A stretch of DNA of 60,000 nucleotides, taken from positions 7,380,001 to 7,440,000 of the forward strand of contig CM075990.1 in assembly GCA_038087875.1 (NCBI GenBank), written 5' to 3'. Source of the stretch: Malacoraja senta (Eukaryota). The position numbers were made by a program, and so were the translations under genes. Numbering within the stretch: position 1 is the stretch's first letter; every line of letters begins with the position of its first letter. The notes under the pieces are model-generated. The model did no database searches. It saw nothing but the letters and a program-made list of their open reading frames with translations, and was not told where the DNA came from. Of the stretch, positions 104-58,010 are shown piece by piece.

Positions 104-735
104 AAATTAGCACTTGATGGAAACAGTCCCTCTGGCCCAGCGAGTTCATGCTAACTACACAGCACCTTTACAATAATCTAGCATTCATCTATTTTTTTTT
201 AAATTCTCCTAATTTCTTCATCAACTCCCCTAGATTCCTACCCCTCTCTTAAGAGGAGCAATTCCCAGCAGCCAATTAACTTACCAACCCACACATCTTT
301 CACTGTGTGTATAACTCGTTATCACGTACCACACAGCCCACAATGGATCATTGTGGGTTCCACCTTTCCTTGATCAATGTTTATTTTTGCATATCTCTCG
401 TTCATTTGTTGCGTGTGCCATCCATACCTCTCGTTTCCCTTTCCCCTGACTCTCAGCCTGAAGATGGGTCTCGACCCGAAACAACCCCTATTCCTTTTCT
501 CCAGAGATGTTGCCTGACCCGTTGAGTCTATCTTCGGTGTAAACCAGCATCTGCAGTTCCTTCCTACACACATCTTTGGGATGTGGGAGGAAACAAGAGC
601 ACTCAGAGGAAACTCACGTGGTCATAGAACGAATATGTATACTCCACATAGAGACCAAGCCAAAGGTCAGGATCAAACTCATATCCCTGGTACTGTCAGG
701 CAAGGATTCTCCGAGCCGTACCACTGCGCCACTGT
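104..735 (-). mobile_element. HE1-like V-SINE, degenerate, split by a Penelope pLTR fragment (~330-573)
   Basis: 3' part ggaaacagtccctctggccc (~120) and 5' part gtcaggatcaaac...ccactgcgccactgt (~665-735) match the SINE copies elsewhere in the window. Confidence 0.65.
330..573 (+). mobile_element. Penelope-like pLTR fragment with hammerhead motif
   Basis: ctgaagatgggtctcgacccgaaac at 458-482, followed by the family 3' end (ccagagatgttgcctgacccg...catctgcagttcc). Confidence 0.75.
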
Positions 736-1006
736 ATGATTTTAATTGCCCAATGTACCAAGATCTAGAATGGTTTGTGATCATTCCCCAACAGAATAGC
801 CGCCTCTTTTCACATTGTTATTGTCAGTCTCATGAATTGTAGCTCTCGATACCTACATCACTTTTCGATCAACATATTGTGTTCTCTCAGCTATGGGACA
901 CTCTGGACAGGACTGTCAATGGACAGAGCTGTGAATGAGCATTTAAAGAAATATTTGATTGAATTGCAGAAGATCTGGGCAATTAACCAATCTTAGTTAG
1001 CGACAG

Positions 1007-1105
1007 TACACAAAAATGCTGGAGAAACTCAGCGGGTGCAGCAGCATCTATGGAACGAAGGAAATAGGCAACGTTTCGGGCCGAAACCCTTCTTCAGACT
1101 TCATC
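1007..1105 (-). mobile_element. ~100-bp Penelope-derived mini-element with minimal hammerhead motif
   Basis: 12-bp TSD AGTTAGCGACAG (995-1006, 1106-1117); near-identical to the 3' end of 4909-6054. Confidence 0.9.
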
Positions 1106-1246
1106 AGTTAGCGACAGAGTGGGGGATATATAAAACTAATAGAAATGGCTTGTACAATTGTAAGGAGAATTGTGAATCCGGCATGATGTGAGAGATCAAG
1201 ACAACTGGTGAAGTTGCACCCTTTACAGTAATCTAGCATTCATCAA

Positions 1247-1529
1247 GGGCGGCACGGTGGCGCAGCGGTGGAGTTGCTACCTTACAGCGGCGGTGACCCG
1301 GGTTCGATCCCGACTACGGGTGCTGTCTGTATGGAGTTTGTACGTTCTCCGAGATCTTCGGTTTCCTCCCACACTCCAAAGACGTACAGGTATGCAGGTA
1401 AATTGGCTTGGTAAATGTAAACATTTTCCCTAGTGTGTGTAAGATATTGTTAATATGTGGGGATCGCTGGTCGGCGCAGACTTGGTGGGCCGAAGGGCCA
1501 GTTTCCGCGCTGTATCTCTAAACTAAACT
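1247..1529 (+). mobile_element. HE1-like tRNA-derived V-SINE, near full length
   Basis: A box tggcgcagcgg, B box ggttcgatcc (1301-1310), V-domain-like ggtttcctcccacactccaaagac, CR1-like tail gggccgaagggcc...tgtatctctaaactaaac. Confidence 0.9.
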
Positions 1530-2194: not shown

Positions 2195-2815
2195 GCTTGC
2201 AGAACACACGTCTTGATGAGCAAAGGCCTACTGGATCGCCAGGTTGCTAACTAGTTTAGCTCCTCTTTCCATTCCTGTGCCGACCTTTCTGTCCTCCATT
2301 GCCGGAGCATGGCCACAGACAAACTGGAGGAACAGCACCTCATATTCCGCTTGGGTAGTTTACAGCCCAACAGTAAAACCTCCAATTTTAGGTAACTGCA
2401 GTCCCCTCCCCACCCAAGCTTTTTTCCGCACCACCCCCTTTTTTTCACCTCCCGCTCCATCTCTGCCCTGTACCCCATCTGGACTTGCATCTACTTCTCC
2501 CTTCCCCCTCCCACCTCCATTCCTTCCTCTAGCTTCACAATTTGTAACTCTTCAATTCTTTTTTCTCACCTCTCTTTTCATCTCTAGTCTTTGTCCAACC
2601 ATCCGCCTATCAAAATACTCTCCTGTGTCGGCCTGCCAGGCTCTGCCCAGCCCCTCCCCTCTTCCAGCTTTCTTCCCCTCTACAATCAGTCTGAAGGAGG
2701 GTCCCAACCTGAAACATCACCCTTCCATGTTCTCCTGAGATGCTGCCTGACCCACTGAATTACTCCAGCAGCTTGTGCCATTTTTTCATAAACCAGCATC
2801 TGCAGTTCCTTGTTT
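2195..2815 (+). mobile_element. Degenerate Penelope-like 3' region (GIY-YIG C-terminus plus pLTR)
   Basis: Encodes KLEEQHLIFRLGSLQP; degenerate hammerhead ctgaaggagggtcccaacctgaaac at ~2691. Confidence 0.8.
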
Positions 2816-3889: not shown

Positions 3890-4147
3890 AAACCAGTTGG
3901 GCCTCTGGAGTGTGGCATCAACGATCTCTCATATAACTGGTGGGGCTCATGTTGTCGCCATCCCCGTGGCGAGCCCTGTCAACTGACCTCAGTCAGGCGA
4001 ACGACAACAAACAGAGACAGCAGCAGCACCGCAGCTTGGTGCCAACCCGGAGCGTGCGCCCTTTTTAGGGCGGGCACCTACGGATGTCGAAGCGGACGGC
4101 ATCACCCTGCTGCAGACTTCTGCTGCCTCAAACGCAAGAAGAAGAAG
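3890..4147 (+). mobile_element. Vingi/Ingi-like LINE 3' fragment, indel-rich
   Basis: Ends ctgctgcctcaaacgcaagaagaagaag, a (GAA)n tail; CpG-rich. Confidence 0.45.
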
Positions 4148-4894
4148 TATAACTTGTATTGTGCATCACACTAAGAAGGGTGGTTCTGGCCATCCCAGGC
4201 CCAGCACAAACAACACTGCAGGAGATTCTCAGGAGAGTGTCGTAGGTCTAAACATCTTTAGATGTTTCAACAAGATATTTCATTTGACCATAAGGTCAGA
4301 AGTGGGAATGTAAGCTGATGATTGCACAGTGCATATTCCGATTCACAATTTCTCAGCAAATGAACCAAACCATTGCACCATAGATGCTGCCTCACCCGCT
4401 GAGTTTCACCAGCATTTTTGTCTACCTGCACTAAAAGACCTCTTCTGTGCCAGCTCCCCATTATTCAACCCCACCATTTTTCAAAAACCTCTCTCCACCT
4501 TAAATATTTCCAAAGATTCAGCCTCCACAACCATCCAGTGAAGAGAACTGCTGAGATTCACCTTCTTATTTTGTTTGGAGAAATGTCCACACTCCTCCAT
4601 CTAATTGCCCTGCAATTATCTTATAACTGCATTCTCTTGTTCGAGACCCTCCCACCGCTGAAAACATCTCAATATCTACTCTGTCCTGACCCCTCAGAAT
4701 CATGCATGCCTCAATAAGGCTCGCTGTCATTCTCCGAACACCAAGGAATACAGGCCCAACCTACCTAGCATCTGTATTCTTTTGGAGCAGCATGATAATG
4801 ACCAGATAATGTCTATTGATGTGGTTTCATAGATAAATATTGCTCCCAGGACTCTGAGGCATCTCCGCTGTTCTTTTTTATACCAAAGCACATA

Positions 4895-5653
4895 GTGCTG
4901 AATGAAAGGCCATTCCTTGACCTCACTATCTCCATCGCAGGTGATAGACTTCTTACCGACATCCACTACAAACCTACCGACTCCCATGGCTATCTGGACT
5001 ACACTTCTTCCCACCCTGCTTCCTGTAAGGACTCCATCCCCCACTCCCAATTCCTCCGTCTACGCCGCATCTGCTCCCAGGATGAGGCGTTCCACACCAG
5101 GGCATCCGAAATGTCCTCATTTTTCAGGGAACGGGGGTTCCCCTCCTCCACCATAGATGAGGCTCGCACCAGGGTCTCTGCCATACCCCGCAACACTGCT
5201 CACTCTCCCCATCCCACCACTCACAACAAGGGCAGAGTCCCCCTAGTCCTCACCTTTCACCCCACCAGCCGTCACATACAACAAGTGATCCTCCGTCAGT
5301 TTCGCCACCTCCAACGTGACCCCACCACTCGCCACATCTTCCCATCTCCCCCCATGTCTGCCTTCCGCAAAGACCGCTTCCTCCGTAACTCCCTTGTCAA
5401 TTCTTCCCTTCCCTCCCGTACCACCCCCTCCCCGGGTACTTTCCCTTGCAACCGCAAGAGATGCAACACTTGTCCCTTCACCTCCCCCCTCTACTCCATT
5501 CAAGGACCTAAGCAGTCGTTCCAGGTCCGACAGAGGTTCACCTGCATCTCCTCCAACCTGATCTATTGCATCCGCTGCTCTAGATGCCGGCTGATCTACA
5601 TCGGTGAGACCAAGCGGAGGCTCGGCGATCGTTTCGCTGAACACCTCCGGTAG
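4895..5653 (+). pseudogene. Penelope pol fragment: RT thumb plus GIY-YIG nuclease, premature TAG
   Basis: PFLDL...YKPTDSHGYLDYTSSHP...SQFLRLRRICS; C-x4-C-x2-C knuckle; NLIYCIRCSRCRLIYIGETKRRLGDRFAEH; homology continues past the stop. Confidence 0.92.
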
Positions 5654-6054
5654 GTCCGCAATAACCAACCTGAACTCCCGGTGGCTCAGCACTTCAACTC
5701 CCCCTCCCTATCCGTATCTGACCTCTCTGTCCTGCGTCTCCTCCATGGCCACAGCGAGCAACACCGGAAATTGGAGGAAATGCACCTCATATTCTGCTTG
5801 GGCAGTCTACATCCTGGGGGCTTGAACATTGAATTCTCCCAATTCTGCTAGCCCTTGCTGTCCCCTCCCCTTGATCAGCCCTCTGGTTGTCTCCTCCCCT
5901 CCCCCAGCCCTCGGGCTCCTCCTCCACCTTTTTTCCTTTCTTCTCCCCACCCCCTATCAGTCTGAAGAAGGGTTTCGGCCCGAAACATTGCCTGTTTCCT
6001 TCGCTCCATAGATGCTGCTGCACCCGCTGAGTTTCTCCAGCATTTTTGTGTACC
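4909..6054 (+). mobile_element. 5'-truncated Penelope-like element (RT C-terminus, GIY-YIG endonuclease, pLTR with hammerhead motif)
   Basis: 16-bp TSD TAGTGCTGAATGAAAG (4893-4908, 6055-6070); ORF 4895-5653; hammerhead motif at ~5961-5987. Confidence 0.95.
5957..5995 (+). ncRNA. Minimal type-I hammerhead ribozyme-like motif in the pLTR
   Basis: cagt-CTGAAGA-A-GGGT-TTCG-GCCC-GAAAC-ATT; this copy has ATT where sister copies have GTT or GTC. Confidence 0.7.
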
Positions 6055-6669
6055 TAGTGCTGAATGAAAGCTGCTCTGTTCAAATATTGAATGGGAATGA
6101 GAAAGCTGATCTTAAGCCAAACCTTTCGATGCATGAATGGCCTTGGATTGATAAATTGCCAAATCCATTCCGCCACTTAAAAAGCATAGGAGAGATAGAC
6201 TGGGAAATTATAGGCATTAGTCTGGCATCAACCAGGGAGAATTGACTGCAATCTGTTATTAGCAGCAGAATAACTGAGTATTTGAATAAACGAATTATCA
6301 GAGAGAAGTCATTATAGTGAAAGATGAGGGAGTTTCCATGGATATTATATGTGTTTCTCAAAGATGGTCATAAAATAATTGGTAATGACAATTAGAGTGC
6401 ATGGACTTGGAAGCAACCTTCTCAGGAGGAAAAGGGACTGGTTAGATCGGAGAGTAGGAATAACTGAGGTGCAATCAAATTAGCAGGGCATGACACATGG
6501 TTTATTCCAGCTCTGCGATCTCAACATTTCTCCGTATTATGAATTATTTAGAGAAAGAACCGTGAGCCAATAATCCGGTCGCTGGTGATCAAAAGTAGCG
6601 TGAATGGGAGCAGAAAGTTGCAGAGACATCAATTTGATTAAATGAGTGGGAAAAAACAGAAAAGATTAT

Positions 6670-6830
6670 ACTTTATTGCCTTCCATCACAGTGAAGAATG
6701 TGGGGAATCCGCTGTGGTGGATGTTTATGTTAACCTTTATGTACTTGTGTGCCTTACTTTTTTTTAGTATGGCTGTATGGTAATTCAAATATCACTGTAT
6801 CTTAATTGATACACAACTGGAGACCTTTGA
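6670..6830 (+). mobile_element. LINE 3' UTR (Rex1/L2-like) with (CCTTTGAAA)n tail, continued at 7633-7653
   Basis: Similar to 12700-13000 (tatggc/aattc-aatatcactgta-cttaattg-tacac...gacctttgaaacctttgaa). Confidence 0.6.
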
Positions 6831-7632
6831 TCTCCAGTTTTGGTCTCCAAATTTGAGGAAGGACATTCTTGCTATTGAGGGAGTGCAGCGTAGGTTCGCA
6901 AGGTCAATTCCCGGGATGGCGGGACTGTCATATGCTAAGAGAATGGAGCGGCTTGGCTTATATACTCTGGAATTTAGAAGGATGAGGGGGATATTATTGA
7001 GACATATAAGATTATTAAGGGTTTGACACGCTAGAGGCAGGAAACATGTTCCCGATGTTGGGGGAGTCCAGAACCAAGGGCCACAGTTTAAGAATAAGGG
7101 TTGACTGGCACTGGCCACTCAAATCAGCCACCCCGGACATGTTTATGATTGGTCTCACTGTATTTTAACGTTGTTTGTATCTATTTTAACTTATACTGTT
7201 CCATCAGGGACTGGATCGTTTTTTGTGTTGTTATTATTATGTGTGAAATGTTTTAAACTTCATGTGCGATGCTCCGGTATTCCCTGGGAAACGTCTTTTC
7301 GTTTTGCACTGCACAACTGTTGCTTGCAAGATGACAATAAAGGAATTGAATTGAATTGAATTGAATTAAGGCATTAAGAATGGAGACGAGGAAACACTTT
7401 TTCACACAGAGAGTCGTGAGTCTGTGGAATTCTCTGCCTCAGAGGGCGGTGGAGGCCGGTTCTATGGATACTTTCAAGAGAGAGCTAGATAGGGCTCTTG
7501 AAGATAGCGGAGTCAGGGGATATGGGGAGAAGGCAGGAACGGGGTACTGATTGGGGACGATCAGCCATGATCACATTGCTGGCTTGAAGGGCCGAATGGC
7601 CTACTCCTGCACCTATTGTCTATTGTCTATTG
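6831..7632 (+). mobile_element. CR1 (HER1-like) 3' end, interrupted at 7101-7368
   Basis: QFWSPNLRKDILAIEGVQRRF...GESRTKGHSLRIR; tail tattgtctattgtctattg. Confidence 0.9.
7101..7368 (+). mobile_element. Rex1/Babar-type LINE 3' UTR inserted in CR1
   Basis: atgacaataaag followed by (TTGAA)n tail; splits contiguous CR1 sequence. Confidence 0.6.
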
Positions 7633-7865
7633 AAACCTTTGAAACCTTTGAAAGTTAAGACAAGTTTCCTTGGATCAATGACTCGTAAGGAGAGTCTTGA
7701 TGGAAAAAGAAATCCAGTTCTTAAGGTTGTGAGGTAACTATCTCAATAATCCTAAAGAGGAAAGTCAACAATGTTCTCAATCACTGACATTTTCTAAATG
7801 TATCTTTGTTTTTTCTTTGAGATACAGCATGGAAACAATTTTCACCTCTCTGAGCTTAGTTCATA

Positions 7866-8188
7866 GTTTAAGTTAGAGAAACAGCTCGGAAACAGGCCCT
7901 TCGGCCCACCAAGTCCGCACCGACCAGCGATCCCTCGCACACTAACACTATCCGACACACACTAGGGACAATTTACAATTTACACTTATACCAAGCCAAT
8001 TAACCTTCAGACCTGTACGTCTTTGGAGTGTGGGAGGAAACCGAAGACCTCGGAGAAAACCCACGCAGGTCACTGGGAGAACGTACAAACTCCGCACAGA
8101 CAGCACCCGTAGTCGGGATCGAACCAGGGTGTCCGGCACTGCAAGCGCTGTAAGGCAGCAACTCTACCGCTGCGCCACCATGCCGCCC
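7866..8188 (-). mobile_element. HE1-like V-SINE, full length
   Basis: Reverse complement of 1247-1529. Confidence 0.9.
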
Positions 8189-8499: not shown

Positions 8500-8762
8500 C
8501 GAGGAAGAAGGGTCTCAACCCAAAATGTCACCCATTCTTTCTATCCAGAGATGCTGCCCGTCCCGCTGAGTCCAGCACTGGGGTCAAGGAAGGAGCGTTC
8601 ACGTCGCGGCCCTGTTTCCACCAATCTTTCCACCACCACGCACAAGAAGCGCAAGAAGCCATCGTATGCAGATGCCGAGAAGTGTGTTCAGCTCTGGCTG
8701 AACAACTTCTAATCTTGTGTGTGCACTCGACAAGAAGAGACTCCAGCATTTTGTGTCTATCT
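8500..8762 (+). mobile_element. Penelope-derived short element split by a 164-bp insertion
   Basis: gaagaagggtctcaacccaaaatgtcaccc...gctgag [insert] ctccagcattttgtgtctatc. Confidence 0.75.
8578..8741 (+). mobile_element. Short LINE 3' end, Vingi/Ingi-like
   Basis: 7-bp direct repeat TCCAGCA (8571-8577, 8742-8748); reads ADAEKCVQLWLNNF* then cactcgacaagaagag. Confidence 0.5.
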
Positions 8763-8764
8763 AA

Positions 8765-9076: not shown

Positions 9077-9580
9077 CATAGAGTCATACGGCATGGACAC
9101 AGGCCCCTTGACCCAACTTGTCTATGCCAACCAAGGTGCCTCATCTAAGCAATTCCCATTTGCCTGCATTTGGCCCTTATCCCTCTAAATCCTTCCTGTC
9201 TATGTACCTGCCCATGTCTAGTAAAGGTTGTTATTGTATCTGCCTCAACTACCTCTTCCAGCAGCTCATTCCATATACCCACCACCCTCTGAGTGAAAAA
9301 CTTGCCCCTCAATCTTTCCCCTCCCACCTTAAATCTCTGAAGTCTGAAGAAGGGTCTCGACCTGAAACGTCACTTATTCCTTTTCTCCACAGACCCGCTG
9401 TTACTCCAGCTTTTTGTGTCTATCTTCGGTTCCCTCCTACACATTAAACCTATGTCCTCTGCTTCTTGATTCCCCAACCCTGGGAAAAAGTGAATGCAGC
9501 TTCTCTATTCTCTTCATCATTTTATAAATCTCTTTAAGATCAGCTCTTAGCATCCTGCGCTCCAAGGAATAAAGTCCTTG
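9077..9580 (-). mobile_element. CR1 3' fragment interrupted by a Penelope hammerhead fragment (~9338-9443, plus strand)
   Basis: FFTQRVVGIWNELLEEVVEA; inserted agtctgaagaagggtctcgacctgaaacgtcact. Confidence 0.8.
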
Positions 9581-10839: not shown

Positions 10840-11430
10840 TCTTGGGATCACACCTAGCCAACAATCAGCCTATCAGGGAACCTCCCTCACTGAGGTCAGC
10901 TGTTGCTGGCCCCGATTTGTCCTGTTTTTTTCGTTGCTTCCAGTCCCCCCCACCCTCCACAATCAGTCTGAAGGAGGGGCCCCGACCCGAAACGTCACCT
11001 ATCTATTTTCTCCAGGGATATTCCCTGACCTGTTGAGTTTGTGTTTTGTGCCTATCTTTGGTATGAACATTGAATGCTCCAATTTTAGATAACCTCTAAT
11101 AACTGTCTCCTGTGCTCCACCTGGTACTCACACCTGTTCTGCTCCTCTCCTTCCCCCTCCTCCTACATTGGAAGCTCACACAATGGCCTCACAATTTACA
11201 ACTCTTCCAACTGTCCCACCCCTCCTGCTTTATGGTAATGTTGCAACCATCTGCCCATCGAACCCCCCCCCCCCCGGGTCACTGGTGTCCACCTATTACC
11301 TGCCACGCTTTGTCCTGCCTCTCCTCTCTTCCAGCTTTCTCTTCCCTCTCACAATCAGTCTGAAGACGGGTCCCGACCCAAAACGTCACCTATCCTTGTT
11401 CTGCAGAGATGCTGCCTGCCTGACGGGTTG
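10840..11430 (+). mobile_element. Two adjacent Penelope pLTR fragments, each with a hammerhead-like motif
   Basis: cagtctgaaggaggggccccgacccgaaacgtcacc (~10964) and cagtctgaagacgggtcccgacccaaaacgtcacc (~11356). Confidence 0.75.
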
Positions 11431-13628: not shown

Positions 13629-13794
13629 ATAGACACAAATAGCTGGAGTAACTCAGCGGGACAGAAGAAGGGTCTCGACCCGAAACATCACCCATTCCTT
13701 CTCTCTAGAGAAGCTGCCTGTCCTGCTAAGTTACTCCAGCTGTTTGTCTCTATCTTCGAGTTAAACCGGCATCTGCAGTTCCTTCCTGCACACA
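13629..13794 (+). mobile_element. Penelope-derived element with short inverted 5' piece
   Basis: 13-bp TSD GAGGTAGATGTTT (13616-13628, 13795-13807). Confidence 0.85.
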
Positions 13795-19411: not shown

Positions 19412-19597
19412 TATGAAAGAACTGCAGATGCTGGTTTAAACCAAAGATAGACACAGAATGCTGGAGTAACTCAGCGGGAGAGGCAGCATCACTGGAGAGA
19501 AGGTATGGGTGGTGTTTCGGGTAGAAACTTCACCCATACCTTCTCTCCAGTGATGCTGCCTGTCCCGCTGAGTTACTCCAGCATTTTGTGTCTATCT
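19412..19597. mobile_element. Penelope-derived fold-back element
   Basis: ~70-bp inverted arms (19442-19511, 19531-19600); 12-bp TSD TTGAGGAATATA (19400-19411, 19598-19609). Confidence 0.9.
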
Positions 19598-19904
19598 TTG
19601 AGGAATATACTGTATATATTTTTTATATGCAGTGGGACAAATTGTTTTAAAGTTTTATGGATACCAACACAATTTCTTTTCGAGGAGTCGAAGAGTTGTC
19701 TCGCACAGAAACCGGCCGTTTGGCTCTCCATGTTCATGCTAAAATTTTGACCTTCAAAATTAATCCCACTTGCCAGTATTAGAAAAATGTCCTTCAAAGC
19801 TATACCTATTCAAGTGCTTCTCTAAATGTATCTTAAAAGTAGTGATTTTATCTGATTCTACCTCTTCCTCTGGCAGCGTTTTCTAGATATCGACCGTTCT
19901 CATC

Positions 19905-22528: not shown

Positions 22529-22725
22529 TGTAGGAAGGAACTGCAGATGCTGGTTTAAACTGAACATAGGCACCAAATGCTGGAGTAACTCAGCGCGACA
22601 GGCGGCATCTCTGGATAGAAGGAATGGGTAACGTTTCTTCAGGGTCTTGACCAGAAACGTCATCCATTCCTTCCATCCAGAGATGCTGCCTGTCCCGCTG
22701 AGTTACTCCAACATTTTTGTATCAA
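22529..22725. mobile_element. Penelope-derived fold-back element
   Basis: 14-bp TSD TGCTCGAGTAATAT (22515-22528, 22726-22739); inverted arms around a damaged hammerhead core. Confidence 0.88.
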
Positions 22726-22879: not shown

Positions 22880-22981
22880 AAGGTAGACAAAAGTGCTGGA
22901 GAAACTCAGCGGGTGCAGCAGCATCTATGGAGCGAAGGAAATAGGCAACGTTTCGGGCCGAAACCCTTCTTCAGACTGAAG
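22880..22981 (-). mobile_element. ~100-bp Penelope-derived mini-element with intact hammerhead motif
   Basis: 12-bp TSD AATCACAGCTCT (22868-22879, 22982-22993); caacgtttcgggccgaaacccttcttcagactg. Confidence 0.92.
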
Positions 22982-24454: not shown

Positions 24455-25045
24455 ACGAAACATACCGAATAGTAAAAGGCCGAAATGGATGTTACCATTA
24501 GAGGGAGAATCTCGGGCCAGAGGTGATAGCCTCAGAATAAAGGGCCGTTCCTTTAGGAAGGAGATGAGGAGGAACTTCTTTAGTCAGAGGGTGGTGAATC
24601 TATGGAATTCATTGCCACAGAAGGCTTTGGAGGCCATGCCAAAGGATATTTCTAAGGCAGAGATCGATAGATTGAATTCTCCCAATTCTGCTAGCCCTTG
24701 CTGTCCCCTCCCCTTCATCAGCCCTCTGGTTGTCTCCTCCCCTCCCCCAGCCCTCAGGCTCCTCCTCCGCCTTTTTCCTTTTTTCCTTTCTTCTCCCCAC
24801 CCCCTATCAGTCTAAAGAAGGGTTTCGGCCCGAAACGTTGCCTATTTCCTTCGCTCCATAGATGCTGCTGCACCCGCTGAGTTTCTCCAGCATTTTTGTG
24901 TACCATCGATAGATTCTTGATCAGTATGGGCATCAGGGTTATGAGGAGAAGGCAGGAGAATGGAGTTGAGAGGGAATGATAGGTCAGCCATGATCAGACA
25001 GCAGAGTAGACTCAATGGGCCGAATGGCCTAATTTTTGTCCTATG
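24455..25045 (+). mobile_element. CR1 3' end interrupted by a Penelope pLTR
   Basis: GESRARGDSLRIKGRSFRKEMRRNFFSQRVVNLWNSLPQ; resumes at 24916. Confidence 0.88.
24674..24904 (+). mobile_element. Penelope pLTR copy, near-identical to 5829-6054
   Basis: 11-bp TSD ATCGATAGATT (24663-24673, 24905-24915); hammerhead core mutated to ctaaaga. Confidence 0.92.
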
Positions 25046-25309: not shown

Positions 25310-25935
25310 CAAATGTGCAGGAAGGGACTGCAACTGCTGGTTTAAACCGAAGATAGACACAAAAAGCTGGAGAAACTCAGTGGGACAGGCAGCATCTCTG
25401 GAGAGGGTGCCGTTTCAGGTCGGGACCGTTCTTCAGACTAGTTAGGGAAAAGGGAAATGAGAGATGATGATGTATAGAGAGAAAGAACAATGAAGGAAAG
25501 ATATGCAAAAAAGTAACGATGACAAAGGAAACAGGCCATTGGGGTCTCGACTTGAAACGTCACCCATTCCTTCTCTCCAGGGATGCACCTGTCCTGCTGA
25601 GTTACTCCAGCATTTTGTGTCTATCTTCGATTTAATCCAGGATCTGCAGTTCTTTCCTACATTCCTGGGCCATTGTTAACTGTGTGTTCGGTGAAAATGT
25701 GAAGCTGGTGTGACTTGGGTGAGTGGGGGGCGGGGGGGGGGGGGAGCGTTGGGGAGAGAGGGAATGCAGGGGTTACTTGGTTAGATAAATCAATATTGAT
25801 TCCACTGGGGTGTAAGCTGCCCAAGTGAAATATGAGATGCTGTTCCTACAATTTACGTTTTGCCTCACTCTGACAATGGAGGAGGCCTAGGACAGAAAGG
25901 TCAGTGTGGGAATGGCAAGGAGAATTAAAATGTTG
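25310..25935 (-). mobile_element. Penelope-like 3' region (GIY-YIG C-terminus plus pLTR) with an internal plus-strand pLTR piece (~25541-25660)
   Basis: Minus strand reads SHTDLSVLGLLHCQSEAKRKL*EQHLIFHLGSLHP; hammerhead-like motif at ~25410-25440. Confidence 0.8.
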
Positions 25936-29397: not shown

Positions 29398-29670
29398 AAC
29401 ATAGACACAAAAAGCCGGAGTGACTCAGCGGGACAGGCAGCATCTCTGGAGAGAAGGAATGGGTGCCGTTTCGGGTCAAGACCCTTCTTCAGACTGGTAA
29501 AGGATTAGGGAAACGAGAGATATAGACGATGATGTGGAGAGATGAAGAACAATGAATAAAAGATATGCAAAAAAGTAACGATGATAAAGGAAACAGGCCA
29601 TTGTTAGCTGTTTGTTGGGTGAAAACGGGACTTGGGTGGGCGTGGGATAGAGAGAGAGGGAATGTCGGGG
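29398..29670 (-). mobile_element. Penelope pLTR with hammerhead motif
   Basis: ccgtttcgggtcaagacccttcttcagactg; imperfect flanking repeat aaccaacatcca/aacccacatcca. Confidence 0.8.
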
Positions 29671-31224: not shown

Positions 31225-31317
31225 CTGAAGAAGGGTTTCGGCCCGAAACGTTGCCTATTTCCTTCGCTCCATAGATGCTGCTGCACCCGCTAAGTTTCTC
31301 CAACATTTTTGTGTACC
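31225..31317 (+). mobile_element. 93-bp Penelope-derived mini-element starting at the hammerhead core
   Basis: TSD TTCCAAGAT (31216-31224, 31318-31326); begins ctgaagaagggtttcggcccgaaacgttgcc. Confidence 0.9.
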
Positions 31318-32590: not shown

Positions 32591-34213
32591 CTACTCCTCT
32601 CCTCTGACTCTGTCTGAAGAAGTGTCTCAACCCTGAAGCATCACCCATGCCTTCACCCCAGAGATGATGCCTGTCTCACTGAGATACTCCAGCAATTTGT
32701 GTGCGTCTTCGGAGTGGTAGTAATGATTGTTCAAAGGTGCGAATCTGAAAGAAATTAAAAAAGGATCATTGTCCCTCTGGGTCGTAGAAATGCCCACAGT
32801 GATACAGTGATGCAGCAGGATACATTGCCCATGATCAACCTTAACCTTTCATGCTGTCTGTAGGGAGTTTCCATCTTCTCCCTGTGACCATGTGCTTTCT
32901 CCAAGCTACTGATATATCCTCCCATATCTTAAAGACATGCGGGTTGGTAGGTTAATTGGCCACTGTAAATCGCCCAAAGTGTATTAGAGGCTTTTTACAG
33001 ATGTCAGATCCCATTGCAAGGAATTCTAAACCAATTTATTAACATGGTCTGACTTACATGCTTTATTTCAAACTATCGTCACAGCTTTCAGAAATTTAAG
33101 AAATGAATGGAGAAAGGGATAATGAAGGCACAGACTTATTTCCTATAAAATACAGGCTTAAAACCGTAAAAAAAAAAATTCTAAGATGCAGATGGCATCA
33201 AAGTATCTGCTTAACCTTCATTTCATTGACAACGTTATGGGCAACTGGAATCGTTTAGAGCAATGTTAACTAGAAAGATAGATTGTTCTGTGAACTGTCA
33301 TAGATGGGCTGAATGGCCTGTTTCCACGTCTAAATGAATACGATTGGAAGCTCTTTATCGCTCCTCTCTGCTGCAGCCAGGTTCCGATTCAAGTTGGAGT
33401 TTAATATGAGGGATGAGTTCCAAAATTAGATATAACTGTTGCTTTTCTTATCTCCCAGCTTGTCACCAGCCTCAAATGAATCTCCTTTTTTGGAAAAAAA
33501 AAAGACTTAATTTAAGGTGAATAGAGAGATGGTCTCGCTGAGCTCAAACTGTGCTTAAAACCTGAGCTACAAAAGCTGTCTCAGTGACTAAAATGCTTTG
33601 ATGCCCTCTCATTAAATGAAATACTTTGTGCATCCTTTGAATGGATGTGACAACATATCTCTGGGGAAATTATCAGGCAGAGGTCAGGCTTTAGGGACAG
33701 GCGCTGGGCTTCATTTTGAATCTTCACTGAACGTTGCAAGAGACAAGTTAATAAGTAACATTAGAGGTGTGATTCTGAAACATGTAGCTTTAATTTATTT
33801 CCAGTAATGCAGTAACCAGAAATTTATTTACTGAGGAAAAAACATCGATTGAGAAAAGAAAATTAGATCATAACGTTTGGACAGAGTGGAGACCATCGGT
33901 TAAAATGTCGGCAGGATGTTCACTTTTCTTTATTCCAGTGTTGTTATGCAGCTGATATTTTCTTGTTTGGTGCAACGTTCTCTTGCAGCTGCATCTGCGG
34001 ACTCTGCTGCATTCAATCAGCAATGCTCCGGCAAGAGTGCAGCACACCATCAGCATCACGACTCCACGGTGCCGGCCACTCACTGCTGTCTCTCTGACAA
34101 TGCAGTGCTCCCTCAGTCCCACCGGTTGGACAATCCAGCACTGCCTCAATGTTCCTCCGCCAATTAAGCACTCCATCAGTCCTCCTCCAACAGGGCAACA
34201 CTCCCTCAGTACT

Positions 34214-36675: not shown

Positions 36676-37195
36676 CCATTTGATAGTTTTTTCAAATTCA
36701 ACAAGACTAGATAAAAGAAAAATTTAAAACGTTATTATCCCACAGGCACAGATTCAAGGTGATCAAAAAAAGAACCAGTGACAATAGGAAATAAAACTAT
36801 TTAAAATGACAGGTGGTTGGGATTTACAATGTACTGCATAATAGACCAATGATTCCAAGCTCAATGGAAATCTTTAAAGGGGAATTGAATGAAACTTAAA
36901 GGAATATGGAGAAAAACAGTGACATGGGGCTTGTGGGATTATACTTCAAATGAACCAGATCATACCTGATGGGCCTAATGGCCTCTGAAAAAGGGTCCCG
37001 ACCCACAACGTCGCCCACCCATAGTCTTAAGAGATGTTGCCTGACCCGCTGAGTTACTCCAGCAGTTTGTGTGTCTTTATTTTGTAAACCATCATTTGCA
37101 GTTCTTTGTGTCCATTGCCTTCTGTGTTGAACGGTCACACCCTACTGGTCTAGTTGGATAATGGAGGTGAGATGTCACGTTGAACATTGAAAGGC

Positions 37196-49819: not shown

Positions 49820-51243
49820 TAGATAGATAGATATGCATTGGAATAGACAGGGGCTGGTTCATAGATAGCCAGCAGTCTAGAATTCCTCAGAAATTCTAAA
49901 ATCTCAGTATTCTAAAATCTTAACAACCACTGAAGTCGCCTGGGTCCTTTCTTTTGCCTGGGTCCCTTCTTAAACAGTGGAGTTACACTTCCAATTTTCA
50001 AGTCCTCTGGAACCATTCCTGACTCGTGATTCTTGAAAGATCACTACAATGCCTCCCTGATCTCCACAGCTACCTTCATCAGAAGTCTGAGGTGCAGTCA
50101 GTCCACCTGGTCCAGGTGACATCCACCTTCAGACCTTTCAGTTTCCCAAGCACCTTCTCCTTAGTAATAGTGACTGTACTCACTCCGGCCCCCCTGACCC
50201 TCTTGAATGTCTGGCACATTGCTGATGTCTTTCACTGTGAAGACTGACACAAAAACGTATTCAGTTTGTCCACCATTTCTTTGTTTCCCATTACTACTTC
50301 CACAGTGTCATGTTCCAGCAGTTCAATGCTCACTCTTTTATTCTGTGTATATTTGTAAAATATCTCTTAGTATAATTTTTTTTAATTTTTGGATAGCTTA
50401 CCTTCTTTTATCTCAATGATTTTTTTTAGTTGCCTTCTGTTGATTTTTAAAAGCTTGCCAATCCTCTAGTTTCTTGCTAATCTTTGCATATTATATGCCA
50501 TCTCTATTTGCTTTTATGCTTTCTTTGACTTCCTTTGTCAGCCAGTGTTGCCCCATTCTCCCCTTGAAATGTTTCTTCCCGGATAAAGTATTACAAAAAT
50601 TCCAACTGGGAGTGAATTTTATTTTATGGATTAAATTATTATATAATAAACCTACAGCTAGAATACTAACTAATAACATATTATCCTCGAAATTTCAACT
50701 ATCAAGGGGAAACAGACAAGGATGCTCATTATCACCACAGTTGTTTGCTCTCATAATTGAACCTTTAGCAGAAAAAATTAGAACACATCCCGATCTCCAT
50801 GGGTATAATACTAAATACTCAAATAATAAAATATCTTTATACGTGGATGATATATTATTGTACATTGCAAAACCTCAAATTACTATACCAAACATATTAA
50901 ATCTAATTGAGGACTTTGGATCCTTTTCTGGATACAGAATAAATTGGAATAAAAGTGAAATTACGTCAATAAAACCGAAAGACTCAACACATCTTTTAAA
51001 ATTCCCTTTTAAAATAGCTACAGAAAAATTTAAATACTTAGGTATTGAAATCACCAGAACATATCAAGGCATGTTCAAAGCAAATTATGATCCTCTAAAT
51101 TAAATACATTAATTACATTTTGAAAAACGCTTCCGATGTCTTTAATAGGCCGAATAAATGCAATAAAAATGATCTTCTTACCACAAATTTTATACCTATT
51201 TCAATCGATTCCTATATACCTACCAAAGAAGTTTTAAAAAAAA

Positions 51244-53373
51244 TTGGATTCAGACATTACTAATTTTATATGGGACTATAAATCCCATAGAATACAAAGA
51301 ACACACTTGAACAAAGATAAAGTATTAGGGGGCTTAGCACTCCCTAACTTCATGTATTATTATTGGTCAGTAAATATTAAAAATATGATTCAACTGATGG
51401 ACAACTCTGCCCAGCAAGTGGACTGGATTGTAATGGAGAGAGAGGACTGCTCCTCTGGAAACATTGGAGCGATCCTTCTCTCACCAATGAAACTGAATAA
51501 CATAAATTATAACAAAAACCCAATTATACATAGTACAATCAGAACTTGGAAACAAATAAAACAAAATTTAAAATTAAGAAATCTATCGCTTTTATCTCCA
51601 ATAGTTAATAACCCTTCGTTTAATCCCTCTATTACAGACATTAGAATACACCCTGATATCCATGGATATAATACTAAAGACTCATATAATAAAATATCTT
51701 TATACGCGGATGATATATTACTGTACATTACAAAACCTCAAATCACTATACCAAATATATTAAATTTAATTGAAGACTTTGGATCTTTTTCTGGATATAG
51801 AATAAATTGGAATAAAAGTGAAATTATGTCAATAAAACCGAAAGATTCAACACATCTTTTAAAATTCCCTTTTAAAATAGCTACAGAAAAATGTAAATAC
51901 TTGGGAATCGAAATTACCAGAACATATCAAGGTATGTTTAGGGCAAATTTTGACCCCCTACTTAATAAATTAAACACAATAAGTAAATTCTGGAAAACGC
52001 TCCCGATGTCTTTAATAGGCCGAATAAACGCAATAAAAATGATCTTTCTACCACAAATTTTATACCTATTTCAATCGATTCCTATATACTTACCAAAGAA
52101 GTTTAAAAAAAAACTCGACTCAGATATCACTAATTTTATATGGGACTATAAATCACATAGAATACAAAAAACTCATCTGAATAAACCTAAAGTATTAGGG
52201 GGTTTAGCACTACCTAACTTTATGTATTATTATTGGTCAGTAAATATTAAAAATATGATTCAACTGATGGATAACTCCGCCCAGCAAGTGGACTGGATTG
52301 TAATGGAGAAAGAGGATTGCTCCTCTGGAAACATTGGAGCGATCCTCCTTTCTCCAATGAAATTGAATAACATAAATTATAATAAGAACCCAATTATTCA
52401 TAGTACAATCCGAATTTGGAAACAAATAAAACAAAATTTAAAATTAAGAAATTTATCACTTTTATTACCTATAGTTAATAACCCTTCGTTTAATCCCGCT
52501 ATTATAAATAAAGCTTTTACACATTGGGATAGACTAGGAATTAAAACGCTTGGTGACTTGTATGAAACTGGAAAATTACTTTCATTTCAACAATTACAAA
52601 TAAAATATAAACTCGGAAATAATCAATATTTTAAATATTTTCAAATATGTGACTATTTGAAAAAATATACAAAAGATCATTATAATAACCCAGTAGATGT
52701 ATTGGACGAGGCAATGCAGATAAAAGATGAATCAGCAAACTTAATATCATATTTGTATAATATTATCTTAAATGTACAAATACCATCTACGGAGGGTATC
52801 AGAAGAGACTGGGAACAAGAGTTAGCTATTAAAATTTCAAAGGAAAGTTGGAATGAACACTTATTAAACGTGCATAAATGTTCGATTAATGTAAGACACA
52901 CTTTAATACAATTTAAAATTTTACATAGATTATATTATTCGAAAACTAAAATTCATAAAATTTTCCCAAATGTATCATCTATTTGTGATAAATGTCAATC
53001 CCAAGAAGCTACTATAGCGCACTCATTCGTTTTCTGTACAAAAATTCAAAAATTTTGGAATGAAATTTTTGAAATCTTTACAAAGTTATTTAAAATAAGA
53101 CTGATACCCAAAGCAGAATGGATTATCTTCGGAATAACAGAAGATGGCCCAGAACTAAATGTGTTTCAAAAGAAACTAATGGACTATGGGTTAATAACTG
53201 GAAAAAAGCTAATTCTAAAATTTTGGAAGAAGGCTCCAATACCAACTATAAATATGTGGACTTCAAATATGTTTGAAACATTACACCTAGAAGAGATAAG
53301 ACTCCTCCTAGCAGGTAAACCAGATCACTTCCACCTGACGTGGTCTGCATTTATAGAATTATTACAAATATAG
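51244..53373 (+). pseudogene. L1 ORF2 fragment (709 aa), chimeric across the junction at ~51640
   Basis: Contains SLYADDILLY and the C-terminal CCHC region; lacks endonuclease and N-terminal RT. Confidence 0.9.
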
Positions 53374-53800
53374 GGTGCAAAAGTACTTTAAAAAAAATTG
53401 AGGTCAGGTAAGGGGGGATGCTAGTTGAAGAGTTGGTATGTCCCATTTACGTAATGCTCATAAAAATATTTGTTTCTCTCTTTTTCCTCTTTCTCTTTCT
53501 CTTTCTTTTCTAGGGTCTATTTCTTAACTCTTTTTCTTTTGTTTTTTAATTTTGCTCTTATAGGGTCTTCGTCCTTTTTTGTTGTCACATTTTCTACACT
53601 TTCACTTTTTCCTTTACTTTCTTCTTTCTTTCAATCTTTTCTTTTTCTAGTGTAAAAAATAAATGGAGTACATTAATTGTAAGAAGACATAAGTGACGAG
53701 TACTAATGTATGTGGTTGTAATGTAATGTACTTCTAATAAATACAAATTAAAAAATAAATAAATAAATAAATTTTAAAAAAAGCAAACTTAATATCATAT

Positions 53801-54421
53801 TTGTATAATATTATCTTAAATGAAGAAATACCATCTACGGAAGGAATTAGAAGAGACTGGGAACAAGAATTAGCTATTGAAATCTCAAAGGAAAGGTGGA
53901 ATGAACATTTATTATATGTGCATAAATGTTCGATTAATGTAAGACACACTTTAATACAATTTAAAATTTTACATAGATTATATTATTCAAAAACTAAAAT
54001 TAATAAAATTTTCCCAAATGTATCATCCATTTGTGATACATGCCAATCTCAAGAAGCTAGTATAGCGCACTCATTTGTTTTTTGTACAAAAGTTCAAAAA
54101 TTTTGGATTGAAATTTTTGAAATCTTTACAAAATTATTTAAAATAAAACTGATACCAAAAGCAGAATGGATTATCTTCGGAACAACGGAAGATAGTCCTG
54201 AACTAAACGTGTTTCAAAATAAATTAATAGATTACGGGTTAATAACTGGAAAAAACTTAATCCTAAAATTCTGGAAAAACGCTCCAATACCAACTATAAA
54301 CATGTGGATTTCAAATATGTTTGAAACATTACACCTAGAAGAGATAAGACTCCTCCTGGCAGGTAAACCAGATCACTTCCACCTGACGTGGTCTGCATTT
54401 ATAGAATTATTACAAGTATAG
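53801..54421 (+). pseudogene. Second copy of the L1 ORF2 C-terminus
   Basis: Diverged paralog of 52753-53373 (CDTCQSQEASIAHSFVFC). Confidence 0.9.
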
Positions 54422-56539
54422 GGTGCAAAAGTACTTTAAAAAAAAAACTGGGATGTAAGGGGGATGAAAGCTGGAGAGTTGGTATGTCCCATTTGCGTGA
54501 TGCTTATAATAAAGTATTTGTTTTTCTCTTTTTTCCTCTTTCTCTTTTTTTTCTTCTTTAGGGTCTATCTCTTAATCCTTTCTTTTTAATTTCTTTTCTA
54601 CAGGGTCTCTGTTCTTTCCTGTTGTCACGTTTTTACACCTTCACTATTTTCCTTCACTTTCTCTTTTTTCTTAATCTCAACCTTTCCTTTTTATCAGTGT
54701 AAAAAATGACGGAGTACATTAATTGTAATAAGATATACATGATGAGTACTAATGTAATTGGTTGTAATGTAATGTACTTCTAATAAATACAAATTAAAAA
54801 AAAAAGAAATGTTTCTTCCCTTTTGGGATGAAAAGATCCTCGGTCTTCCAAATTACTCCCGCATGCTCCTGCTATTGCCACTCCACCTGCTCGGAACGTC
54901 TTCCACGCAACTTTCGCCAGCTCCTCCCTCATGTCTCTGTAGTTACCTTTGCTCAACAGTAATACCAATACATTTGATTTTCTCTCCCTTAAACTCCTGG
55001 TTGAGTCCTATCTCATTATGATTACTACCTCCTAGGGGTTCCTTCACTTTATGCTCCCTGATCAAATCTGGTTCATTACACCAAATCCAGAATTGCTTTT
55101 TCCCTAGTGGGCTCGATCACAAGCTGCTCTAAAAAGCCGTCTCGGAGGTATTCTACAAATTCTTTCTCTCGGGATCTAGTACCAACCTGATGTTTCCCTG
55201 AGGTCTACCTGCACATTAAAATCCCCCATGATCACTGTAACATTGCCTTTCATTCATGCCTTTTCTATCCCCTAACGTAATTTGTATGCTACATCCAGGC
55301 TACTATTCGGAGGTCTGTATATAACTCCCATCAGGGTCTCATTACCCTTGAAGTTACTTAATTCTATCCACAAGGATTCATCTTCTGATGCCATACTGTT
55401 ACTTGCTAAGGATTGGATTTCATGCCTTACCACCCCTCTGCTCACCTCTCTACCTTTACAATAGGATGTGTATCCTTGGTTGTTCAGCTCCCAGCTCTGA
55501 TTCTCTTTGAGCCATGACTCTGTGATACCCACATACCTGCCAATTGCTAACTGTGCAATAACCTCCTTCACCTTGCTCGGTATACTGCATGCATTCAAAT
55601 ATAACACCTTCAGTTCTGTATTCATCATCCTTCTCTTCAAATTGGTCCCGATGTTGCTTGACATTAGACTCTTATCCTTTTCTAAAGTTTCTGTCTTACT
55701 TCTTATTCTAGAGACTTAGGTAACCTCTTTTGCGCTCTGCTTCCCTTATGTTTATCCACACTGTTCCAATCTATTAAACCTAACCCACCCCCCTCACTAT
55801 TTAGTATAAAGCCCTATCTACAGCTGTAGTTATGTGATTCAGGAGGAACATGGCCCCAGTAGGCTTCAGGGGTACCGCCTGCTTCTTTTAATGGCCTGCC
55901 TTTTCCATCAAAGGCTCTTTCCCTGTATTTTCCTGGTGATTTACCAAAATTGATTTTTCTCCCCTCAAAATGCCTGCTCACCCACATTCTGTTGGACTTT
56001 GAAGGTAGAAAGAATATCTTGTAGCTATGTCCTCTTGTTTCAGATTTTTTTCCCCCCTATATGTGGAAGCATCTCAACATAGGTACAGCCCCCTTAGGTA
56101 TGCTTGAAATAAAGGTAACCCTTCATTCCTCTAAACTCTAAGGGATACAGACCCAAATTGGTAGATTCTCCTAACAAGCCAACCCTCTCATCTGAGGAAT
56201 TAGCTGACGTTCCATCCCTGGAGTTTTCTACCTGATGTTTCCGTTATTGTGACCATTGTTCCTAACATTGTTCACTTGCTGTGTTGCAGCATTTTCATTA
56301 ACATGTCCTTGTTTCCAAAGCAAATACAATACAACTTTGACAGCTGCAATTCTGACAGCTAGAACTATGAGTCCTTTGCTTTTTAAAAATGTTCTAAATA
56401 GTGACTTTGGATCTCCAAATCTGTACACTGTGTTCAGGTTATTGCCTGTCACTGCGAACCCATAACTTGATCCTTCATGGTAAAGTCATGCTCCAAGTTA
56501 TCTGGCCCGCAGTGCCTCCAAACCTTTTTCAAACTCTAG

Positions 56540-56992
56540 ATTCAAGATTCAAGTGAGTTTATTGTCATGTGTCCCAGATAGGACAATTAAATTCTTGCTT
56601 TGCCTCAGCACAACAGAATTATAGAAGGCATGAATACAGAACAGATCAGTGTGTCCATATACCATTGTATAAATATATACACACATGAATAAATAAAACA
56701 TATAAAGTGCAACTAAACAGATAATGGTCTATTAATGTTCAGAGTTTTGTCTGAGCCAAGTTTAATAGCCTGATGGCTGTGGGGAAGTAGCTGTTTCTGA
56801 ATCTGGACGTTGCAGTCTTCAGGCTCCTGTACCTTCTACCTGAAGGTAGCGGGGAGATGAGTGTGTGGCCAGGACGATGTGGGTCCTTGATGATGCTGCC
56901 AGCCTTTTTGAGGCAGCGACTGCGATAGATCCCCTCGATGGTAGGGAGGTCAAGAGCCAATGATGGACTGGGCAGTGTTTACTACTTTTTGT
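56540..56992 (-). mobile_element. Rex1/Babar LINE 3' end, well preserved
   Basis: LPTIEGIYRSRCLKKAGSIIKDPHRPGHTLISPLPSGRRYRSLKTATSRFRNSYFPTAIRLLN; (TTGAATC)n tail. Confidence 0.9.
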
Positions 56993-57289
56993 AAACTGGC
57001 AACACAATTTCTAAATGCTAAGGATCCAGTTTGTCATCACTTTGCCAAGTTCCTGTATTTGTCATCATGAGGCTTCATTTTCTGCTGGTGCAGTGATTTC
57101 AATTCCTCCAGATTTGCATGGCATTCCCATTCTTTCCCCACTGCCCTCCATGTCTCTCATTTTCTGTGCTGTTTTCCTTTGCCTCAGTCTCTAACAGCTT
57201 CTCCATGGTTTCTCTGCTCTTTTGAGCAGTCTGTTGGCTAGTGGTACAATCCCTCTTTTACTTCCCAATGCTTCTGCACGTGGGTGTAG

Positions 57290-58010
57290 TGTGGAACAGC
57301 ACCGAAATAGGCCCTTCTGACCACCTTTTGCCCATCGACACTAATCCCATTGGATTGTATTAGGACCCTATCCTTCAATGTCTCTATGCCCCTCAATTGC
57401 ACTGATTGTACCTGATACCACGGGTGCAGGAAAGTACTGCAGGTGCTGGTTTAAATCGAAGATAGACCCAAAATGCTGGAGTAACTCAGCAGGACAGGCA
57501 GCATCTCTGGAGAGAAGGAATGGGTGACGTTTCGGGTCGAGACCCTTCTTCAGACTTTACTTCAATCTGAAGAAGGGTCTCGACCCGAATCATCACCCAT
57601 TCCTTCTTTCCAGAGATGCTGCCTGTCCCGCTGAGTTACTCCAGCATTTTGTAAATGATACTACCACCTCTTTTGGCAGCACATTCCCAAAATCAACCAC
57701 TCTGTGAAAAAAGCCTTTCCGCTCATATCCTCTCCAAGGTGCCGACCTCTCACCTTAAACCTATGCCCTTGGTTTGGTACCCCTACAATGGGAATAAGAC
57801 TTCCACACTCTGACCCCTCATAATGTTGTATACTTTCACCAAATATACTTCTATCAGCTGATACTTCAGCCTCTTTCACTCCAAGGTAAATAAGCCAAGC
57901 CTATTCAATCCAGACAACATCCTGATGAATCTCTTCTGCACTCTAATACAATCATATTCTTCCAGTGGAGTGCCAACAAGAACTGTGCACAATACTGCAT
58001 GTGCAGCCTA
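57290..58010 (-). mobile_element. Degenerate CR1 3' region hosting a fold-back Penelope derivative
   Basis: QGHRFKVRGRHLGEDMSGKAFFT. Confidence 0.7.
57425..57653. mobile_element. Penelope-derived fold-back element with two divergent hammerhead motifs
   Basis: Inverted arms of ~86 bp over 57469-57651 around a ~11-nt spacer. Confidence 0.9.

What the first reader, a model, noticed from the sequence alone, without database searches (positions are those of the whole stretch)
458..57600. Penelope-like family scatters minimal hammerhead ribozyme motifs across the window
Seen: more than 15 intact or degenerate copies of CTGAAGA-A-[stem II]-GAAAC-GTY, at about 458, 1075(-), 2691, 5961, 8503, 9344, 10968, 11360, 13663, 22950(-), 24812, 25420(-), 29470(-), 31225, 32613, 36985 and 57530(-)/57567. 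Two subfamilies keep stem II paired with different sequence: GGGT-TTCG-GCCC with a GUU triplet, and GGGT-CTCG-ACCC with a GUC triplet. Stem III is reduced to the palindrome ACGT. Established: Penelope-like elements carry minimal type-I hammerheads in their pLTRs, thought to cleave as dimers, so the class is not new. Inference: this genome holds a very large number of these motifs, and transcripts reading through them could be cleaved or circularised. The extra A after CUGANGA and the very short stem I make activity uncertain.
Basis: partly seen in the sequence, partly recalled or inferred. Interest (0 to 1): 0.72.

Follow-up and report, generated by a model that had tools for sequence, protein, structure and literature searches.

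The report
Jumping-gene ribozyme leaves cut-site fossils
These repeats are the known small self-cutting RNA motif of a Penelope-type jumping gene, present in tens of thousands of exact copies, and rearranged copies join unusually often at the exact base where the motif is predicted to cut, which likely records occasional self-cutting in living cells.

Summary
All 18 listed motifs exist, 5 with an intact core; the genome has 11,606 and 13,276 exact copies of the two variants. They are the published minimal type-I hammerhead in the pseudo-LTR of a Penelope-like retrotransposon. The extra A and the loopless ACGU are hallmarks of that class, not defects. Stem II shows only a U-A/U·G change, not compensatory covariation. 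Most copies are 95- or 130-nt stubs that begin at the ribozyme's front edge (about -3, likely a capped start), so uncut RNA is the usual template; at most about 1.4% begin at the cut site. In permuted cDNA junctions, however, 7 of 19 between +9 and +32 fall exactly on the predicted cut (+28; p about 7e-6). None of these carries an untemplated G, whereas 9 of 10 junctions at -3/-2 follow a G. An older GUC lineage shows the same in small numbers. One array of ten identical 138-nt units joins exactly at +28. This is likely genomic evidence of minor in vivo cleavage, an open question in print. The scan noted front-edge starts and cut-site junctions before in other genomes. No RNA-end data were available.

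The parts
1070..1097 (-). Intact minimal hammerhead (GUU); in a ~95-nt stub spanning about 1006-1100, flanked by a 12-bp duplication
9344..9371 (+). Intact minimal hammerhead (GUC lineage)
22947..22974 (-). Intact minimal hammerhead (GUU); ~100-nt stub starting at -5, with a 12-bp duplication
31225..31252 (+). Intact core (GUU); stub starts at -1, so stem I keeps only 1 bp; 14-bp duplication
57526..57553 (-). Intact minimal hammerhead (GUC); head-to-head with the decayed copy at 57567
57567..57594 (+). Decayed hammerhead, inverted arm of the same insertion
4909..6054 (+). 5'-truncated Penelope-like copy: RT C-terminus, CX4CX2C linker, GIY-YIG, 3' pLTR with hammerhead at 5962-5989 (palindrome mutated), tail ending at +92; 16-bp duplication at 4893-4908 and 6055-6070
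24674..24905 (+). 5'-truncated pLTR copy with a decayed hammerhead at 24812-24839
458..485 (+). Decayed hammerhead (GUC lineage)
2691..2718 (+). Decayed hammerhead
8502..8529 (+). Decayed hammerhead whose tail is interrupted by a 160-bp element with an HDV-like head
10968..10996 (+). Decayed hammerhead
11360..11387 (+). Decayed hammerhead
13662..13689 (+). Decayed hammerhead preceded by an inverted tail fragment
25409..25436 (-). Decayed hammerhead; an oppositely oriented partial copy lies at 25542-25661
29465..29492 (-). Decayed hammerhead
32614..32642 (+). Decayed hammerhead
36985..37012 (+). Decayed hammerhead
19415..19601 (.).
22529..22720 (.).

Best explanation
The motifs are the minimal type-I hammerhead in the pseudo-LTR of an endonuclease-bearing Penelope-like retrotransposon; most genomic copies are short stubs likely copied from uncut, capped RNA, and a minority of template RNAs were likely self-cleaved after GUU/GUC. 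Shown: element structure, copy numbers, the two 3' ends (+92/95 and +128/130), 5' ends piling up at about -8 to +8, and a second sharp pile-up of permuted junctions at +28. Inferred: transcription starts at the initiator-like TCAGT (A at -3, G at -2) and the RNA is capped. The element's reverse transcriptase primes on nicked DNA inside the RNA, at the tail. It runs to the RNA's 5' end, and sometimes continues on an RNA 3' end at about +165 to +225, either by jumping or on a circle. Two RNAs would pair through ACGU, probably with protein help, to cut at +27/+28. Cutting is likely a side path and not required for insertion.
For: Full-length pLTR-ORF-pLTR unit of 3,918 nt with a 1,224-codon open frame, RT and GIY-YIG hits, and tandem units. 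Genome counts with one fixed anchor: 39,424 copies; 31,384 with GAAA at +20; 23,336 with CTGA at 0; 8,716 with CTAT at -8; 234 for an off-by-one probe. Of 30 anchor loci, 21 start between about -12 and +12, 9 run further upstream, none starts at +28. Of 56 de-duplicated permuted junctions, 33 lie at -8..+8 and 19 at +9..+32. Of those 19, 7 are exactly +28, 2 are +27 (a T shared with the upstream side) and 2 are +29; binomial p = 7e-6 against uniform 1/24. G precedes 9 of 10 junctions at -3/-2 (p = 3e-5; 6 untemplated by eye) but only 2 of 9 at +27/+28, both templated by the upstream side. Older GUC-type anchor: 3 of 4 distinct junctions in +9..+32 fit +28, and 2 of 8 tail junctions do. Arrays of 10 identical 138-nt units (junction exactly +165|+28, 3' end at +129) and 3 identical 165-nt units. 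In vitro, the anole element's hammerhead cuts only with protein and is dispensable for insertion (PMC11167929).
Against: Linear 5' ends show at most a weak excess at +28: 219 against 93 (+26), 11 (+30) and 99 (+32) of 39,424. The +28 probe accepts either purine and also collects +29 starts, deletions and fold-backs. G precedes +28 in 25 of the first 50 rows (hand count), many in fold-back or deletion contexts that I did not resolve. Tail-end junctions give only 3 exact of 21 (p = 0.055). In linear copies starting at -3 the preceding base is G in only 38 of 100. Folding predicts a non-ribozyme hairpin that buries the core in monomers and a different duplex in dimers, with z near 0. Stem I is 2 bp. 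The uniform null is crude and junctions were de-duplicated by eye. Published RNA-seq of the anole element showed no ends at the cut (PMC11167929).
Confidence: 0.75

Rival explanations
1. The motif is a real Penelope hammerhead by descent but does not cut in vivo; the +28 junctions come from a secondary transcription start (pyrimidine-purine step at +27/+28), a reverse-transcriptase stop at structure, or a protein nuclease.
For: Only about 1% of linear copies start at +28. The predicted fold is not the hammerhead. +27/+28 is a pyrimidine-purine step in all variants. Half of the first 50 linear +28 rows have a preceding G.
Against: +28 was predicted beforehand. The pile-up is one base wide and recurs in the GUU and GUC lineages. 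Permuted +28 junctions lack the untemplated G seen at -3/-2. Helix-edge stops would be expected at +20, +27 or +30 (inference).
Confidence: 0.15
2. Cleavage followed by ligation makes small covalent circles that are a regular, retrozyme-like route of amplification, so cutting is central and not a side path.
For: Arrays with identical junctions at +28 (11 and 4 junctions), one starting at the +129 initiation site.
Against: The +28 units lack the ribozyme. Repeated identical junctions also occur at +3 (47 junctions), -1, +23 and elsewhere. The +3 array has variants shared among units, which points to DNA-level expansion. Single junctions often carry untemplated A runs, as expected for end-to-end jumps. 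Such products number tens against tens of thousands of stubs.
Confidence: 0.07
3. The front-edge 5' ends mark a splice acceptor (pyrimidine tract + CAG|U at -1), as in D. virilis Penelope, or a fold-back at the TCAG-T-CTGA palindrome, and not a transcription start.
For: An acceptor-like sequence lies right before stem I. 6 of 33 front-edge junctions are at -1. The D. virilis intron ends at helix I (PMC4209133). Exact inversions centred on -1 exist (L020/L021).
Against: No shared upstream exon among stubs. None of 13 matches joins the donor-like site near +160 to -1. Untemplated G before -3/-2.
Confidence: 0.1

Closest known systems
Minimal type-I hammerheads (min-HHR) of metazoan Penelope-like elements (Cervera and de la Pena 2014, PMC4209133; parts 1-2 of 4 read)
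   Same: Located in the pLTR; extra base between 9 and 10.1; G10.1-C11.1; palindromic 15.2-16.2 with no helix III loop; mostly dispersed single truncated copies; predicted to need a dimer.
   Different: Helix II is 4 bp and helix I 2 bp here, against 7-8 and 4-5 bp in Schistosoma. Copy number is far higher (24,882 exact copies of two 31-mers, against about 4,000-9,000 motifs reported for coelacanth and Xenopus with another method). That paper says in vivo evidence is absent.
Poseidon element PAc of Anolis (Frangieh et al. 2024, PMC11167929; parts 1-2 of 4 read)
   Same: Two internal RT start sites defining a 30-40-nt tail (here +92/95 and +128/130); uncut RNA as the main template.
   Different: Here the hammerhead and tail lie in the 5' UTR (first Met at +163), the protein has a Zn-finger-like linker, and genomic junctions record the predicted cut, which their RNA-seq search did not find.
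Neptune/Nematis-type EN+ PLEs (Craig et al. 2021, PMC8557442; passages read)
   Same: C-terminal GIY-YIG, CX2-5CxxC linker, partial tandems, inverted 5' copies, optional tail.
   Different: Clade not placed by a tree here; long proline-rich N-terminus (about 1,210 aa protein).
Non-LTR retrozymes (bioRxiv 10.64898/2026.07.22.740005; parts 1 and 3 of 5 and passages read)
   Same: Tandem arrays derived from a PLE pLTR.
   Different: Retrozyme units each hold a whole hammerhead. The +28 arrays here lack it and the +3 array lacks CUG; only short two-junction arrays at -1 keep the core.

Membership tests
Penelope-like element (EN+) | Single ORF with RT and C-terminal GIY-YIG | tested here: met
   1,224-codon frame; RVT_1 E=6e-4 and GIY-YIG E=1.4e-3, both under Pfam's cut-offs; DKG, YIGET and C..C..H..H motifs read by eye
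Penelope-like element (EN+) | pLTRs from partial tandems, inverted 5' copies, 30-40-nt optional tail, short target duplications | tested here: met
Neptune clade | CX2-5CxxC linker between RT and EN | tested here: met
   CX4CX2C before the GIY-YIG; feature shared with Nematis (PMC8557442)
Neptune clade | RT phylogeny | not tested
   no named reference PLE proteins were fetched
Minimal type-I hammerhead of PLEs | CUGANGA, extra base, G10.1-C11.1 helix II, GAAA, palindromic 15.2-16.2, UH | tested here: met
   5 of 18 window copies intact; master sequences intact
Minimal type-I hammerhead of PLEs | Compensatory covariation in helices | tested here: inconclusive
   only U-A/U·G changes at 10.4-11.4 and 2.1-1.1 among 122 copies; the lineages are too close
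Minimal type-I hammerhead of PLEs | Self-cleavage as a dimer | not testable with these tools
   indirect support from junctions at +28; folding does not favour the active form
Non-LTR retrozyme | Tandem units each with a complete hammerhead | tested here: not met
   long arrays found lack all or part of the core; the genome was not searched exhaustively for such arrays

The most novel reading that the evidence does not exclude
The genome is a fossil 5'-end map of a Penelope RNA. It records a capped start three bases before the ribozyme and an uncapped end exactly at the hammerhead cut. Cut RNAs were closed into 138-165-nt circles and copied round and round by the element's reverse transcriptase, so a loopless, 2-bp-stem hammerhead works in trans in the vertebrate germline and seeds new tandem arrays.
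Probability: 0.35. Interest if true: 0.72.

Novelty: new member of a known kind. Interest (0 to 1): 0.52.

Why it matters
Whether the minimal hammerheads of animal Penelope-like elements cut in vivo is open. They are weak in vitro (PMC4209133), dispensable for insertion and undetected as RNA ends in the anole system (PMC11167929), and have been suggested to be possible parasites of the elements (PMC8557442). Junctions at the predicted cut give a DNA-only readout that can be repeated in any assembled genome with many copies. It indicates that cutting happens but feeds only a small share of insertions. It also explains the roughly 250 motif copies per Mb as start-to-tail stubs and not as selected host ribozymes.

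Tried and rejected
Rfam found no hammerhead family in the window at E up to 10; its microRNA hits at 19.5 and 22.6 kb are fold-back stubs. Sequencing runs: no RNA holder listed and only contigs. A depth step near +195 in RNA-like contig sets also appears in two large DNA-like sets, where related lineages diverge, so it is no evidence on transcript ends. The cap-G test on linear copies was inconclusive (G 38, A 35, T 27 of 100). Splicing from the donor-like site near +160 to the acceptor-like site at -1: none of 13 matches. One search was an off-by-one probe, kept as a noise control. A longer stem I is not conserved beyond 2 bp. The apparent cluster of RNA 3' ends at +186 to +209 is bounded above by my search gap, so a defined ~200-nt transcript is suggested but not shown. 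Lunse et al. (PMC5785218) is not held; I saw only its reference line. No supplements were read, and motif alignments in those of PMC4209133 and PMC8557442 may already include this family.
Full report
Numbering: C3 of CUGAAGA is 0; the predicted cut lies between +27 and +28.

1. Observation. Motif scans recover all 18 listed places. Five keep the whole minimal core and 13 are decayed. A strict descriptor gives 5 hits in the window against 0.07 on average in 100 shuffles. The genome (1.94 Gb) holds 11,606 exact copies of the GUU 31-mer and 13,276 of the GUC 31-mer, with 0 for reversed controls. In 600 kb taken as twelve 50-kb blocks from the twelve largest contigs, 150 ungapped copies lie within 7 substitutions. 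That is about 250 per Mb, or roughly 5 x 10^5 if extrapolated. Among 122 better-kept copies, stem II varies only by U-A/U·G at 10.4-11.4 and by decay, and stem I has 2 bp. Rfam has no matching hammerhead model.

2. What it is. The copy at 5962 ends a 5'-truncated insertion with RT C-terminus, CX4CX2C linker and GIY-YIG, flanked by a 16-bp duplication. Its protein finds many 97-98% identical copies (150 scored of 73,520 candidates). Locus L112 is pLTR-ORF-pLTR, unit 3,918 nt, open frame 1,224 codons, and L119 and L120 hold tandem units. Pfam gives weak RVT_1 and GIY-YIG hits. This is an EN+ Penelope-like element with the linker described for Neptune and Nematis (PMC8557442, passages). Cervera and de la Pena (PMC4209133, parts 1-2 of 4) list the extra base after A9, G10.1-C11.1 and the palindromic 15.2-16.2 pair as conserved features of these ribozymes. 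They also report a 2-bp helix I in D. virilis and low activity even as dimers. Copies end at +92/95 or +128/130, matching the two internal RT start sites and tail shown for the anole element (PMC11167929, parts 1-2 of 4).

3. Where copies begin. With one fixed anchor (+44..+63) there are 39,424 copies. Of these, 31,384 keep GAAA at +20, 23,336 keep CTGA at 0 and 8,716 keep CTAT at -8; an off-by-one probe gives 234. Part of the last drop is a sublineage with another base there. Still, of the first 30 anchor loci 21 begin between about -12 and +12, 9 run further upstream and none begins at +28; many stubs show 9-17-bp target duplications. Uncut RNA is thus the usual template. Exclusion probes for linear starts give 219 at +28, 93 at +26, 11 at +30 and 99 at +32. 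That is at most about 1.4% of copies after correction and perhaps a two-fold excess, with noise from insertions, deletions and fold-backs; 12 of 17 fetched +28 loci had an inverted partner.

4. Permuted junctions. I searched for 5'-UTR or ORF-start sequence lying directly upstream of pLTR sequence, the mark of an RT that reached an RNA 5' end and went on at an RNA 3' end (loci completed). I kept 13 of 16, 36 of 76, 3 of 13 and 4 of 13 matches, dropping repeats within arrays and apparent duplicates by eye, which left 56 loci. Scripted calls put 33 at -8..+8, 19 at +9..+32 and 4 at the search edge. Of the 19, seven are at +28, two at +27 (sharing a T with the upstream side) and two at +29; p = 7e-6 for 7 of 19 under a uniform 1/24. 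By eye three calls are off (L417 belongs near -1, L403 at -3, L231 at +29), which does not weaken the peak. G precedes 9 of 10 junctions at -3/-2, six of them untemplated by eye. This fits copying of a cap (established knowledge of RTs, recalled; one search gave only a listing) and a start at the initiator-like TCAGT; D. virilis Penelope has an internal Inr/DPE promoter (PMC2377424, passages). At +27/+28 only 2 of 9 follow a G, both templated; several follow short A runs. With a GUC-lineage anchor, 3 of 4 distinct junctions in +9..+32 fit +28 (one with 2-nt microhomology) and 13 lie at the front edge. Tail-end junctions are weaker: 3 exact of 21 (p = 0.055) and 2 of 8 in the GUC lineage.

5. 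Arrays. L411 has ten identical 138-nt units joined exactly +165|+28 and ending at the +129 RT start. L237 has three identical 165-nt units joined at +27/28. These fit rolling-circle copying of circles closed at the cut end. But identical repeated junctions also occur at -1, +23 and +3; the +3 array spans 9 kb and has shared variants that suggest DNA-level expansion. Circle versus repeated jumping versus later duplication is therefore undecided. These are not retrozymes, whose units keep the ribozyme (bioRxiv 10.64898/2026.07.22.740005, parts 1 and 3). The circle idea for PLEs is in print as a hypothesis (PMC4209133; PMC6765202, passages).

6. Mechanism. Shown: structure, counts, ends and junction positions. 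Inferred: capped start at -3/-2; internal priming at the tail; stubs as start-to-tail copies; occasional cleavage by two RNAs pairing through ACGU, probably protein-assisted as for the anole ribozyme; reuse of the cut 3' fragment as template. Folding does not favour the active form, in keeping with low yield. Whether host transcripts running through dispersed copies are cut is untested and seems unlikely for most, since they are decayed, unpaired and often lack the 5' half of stem I. RNA-level checks were not possible.

7. Novelty. The class is known and this is a new, very abundant member. I found no paper reporting PLE junctions at the hammerhead cut (searches; the last listed 0 papers). Lunse et al. 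was not available, and supplements were not read. PMC3846280 (passages) describes inverted pLTRs, tails and duplications, and proposes template jumps. The scan's own notes, read after I had formed my reading, report front-edge starts and cut-site starts in other genomes. They are unchecked and not independent support, but they show the idea has arisen before in this scan. The added value here is the permuted-junction statistic with a cap-G contrast and a second lineage.

8. Verdict. Observation confirmed; interpretation partly supported; new member of a known kind; interest 0.52. Confidence in PLE hammerhead identity is about 0.97, in recorded in vivo cleavage about 0.75-0.8, and in covalent circles about 0.35.

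Noticed in passing
window 8580-8738 (+): A separate 160-bp SINE-like element with an AAG-repeat tail. Its first 52 nt can be drawn as a compact HDV-like ribozyme: Rfam CPEB3 hit at 30.9 bits (gathering 35), with a P3/L3 13-mer identical to the CPEB3 model. By hand pairing it has a 6-bp P1 starting with G·U, a 7-bp P2, almost no P4 and a CCAA joiner. The genome search gave 1,511 candidates, 40 scored. In many of the 20 best copies the target duplication abuts the first G, the predicted cleavage site (by eye; best hits are biased to full length). It could be a mobile relative of the mammalian CPEB3 ribozyme. Activity is untested, and search listed no paper on such an element.
   Followed up: partly
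L409-L410 (G000:C5488, about 71.4-80.4 kb): A 9-kb array of 46 full 192-nt units (+3..+194 of the element), 3' end exactly at the +92 RT start, with a short flanking duplication; 10 unit types with shared variants.
   Followed up: partly
window 57553-57567; L020/L021: Head-to-head inversions often break at or near the TCAG-T-CTGA palindrome that spans stem I and the core, some exactly centred on -1.
   Followed up: partly
L112:4025-4071; window 22931-22977 and 57510-57556 (-): In all three variants the purine-rich 5' core is predicted to pair with the pyrimidine run just after the cut site, a possible off-state of the ribozyme; z-scores near 0.
   Followed up: partly
window 50444-54421 (+): Partly duplicated L1-like RT frames (RVT_1 and zf-RVT hits).
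   Followed up: no
G000:C1:3.87-4.03 Mb: About 20 copies at ~2.4-kb spacing share one mutation of the cleavage-triplet region, consistent with a larger tandem repeat carrying one stub.
   Followed up: no
L112:4182-4196: A splice-donor-like sequence overlaps the first Met codon of the ORF (+160 to +165); no spliced copy to the -1 acceptor-like site was found.
   Followed up: partly
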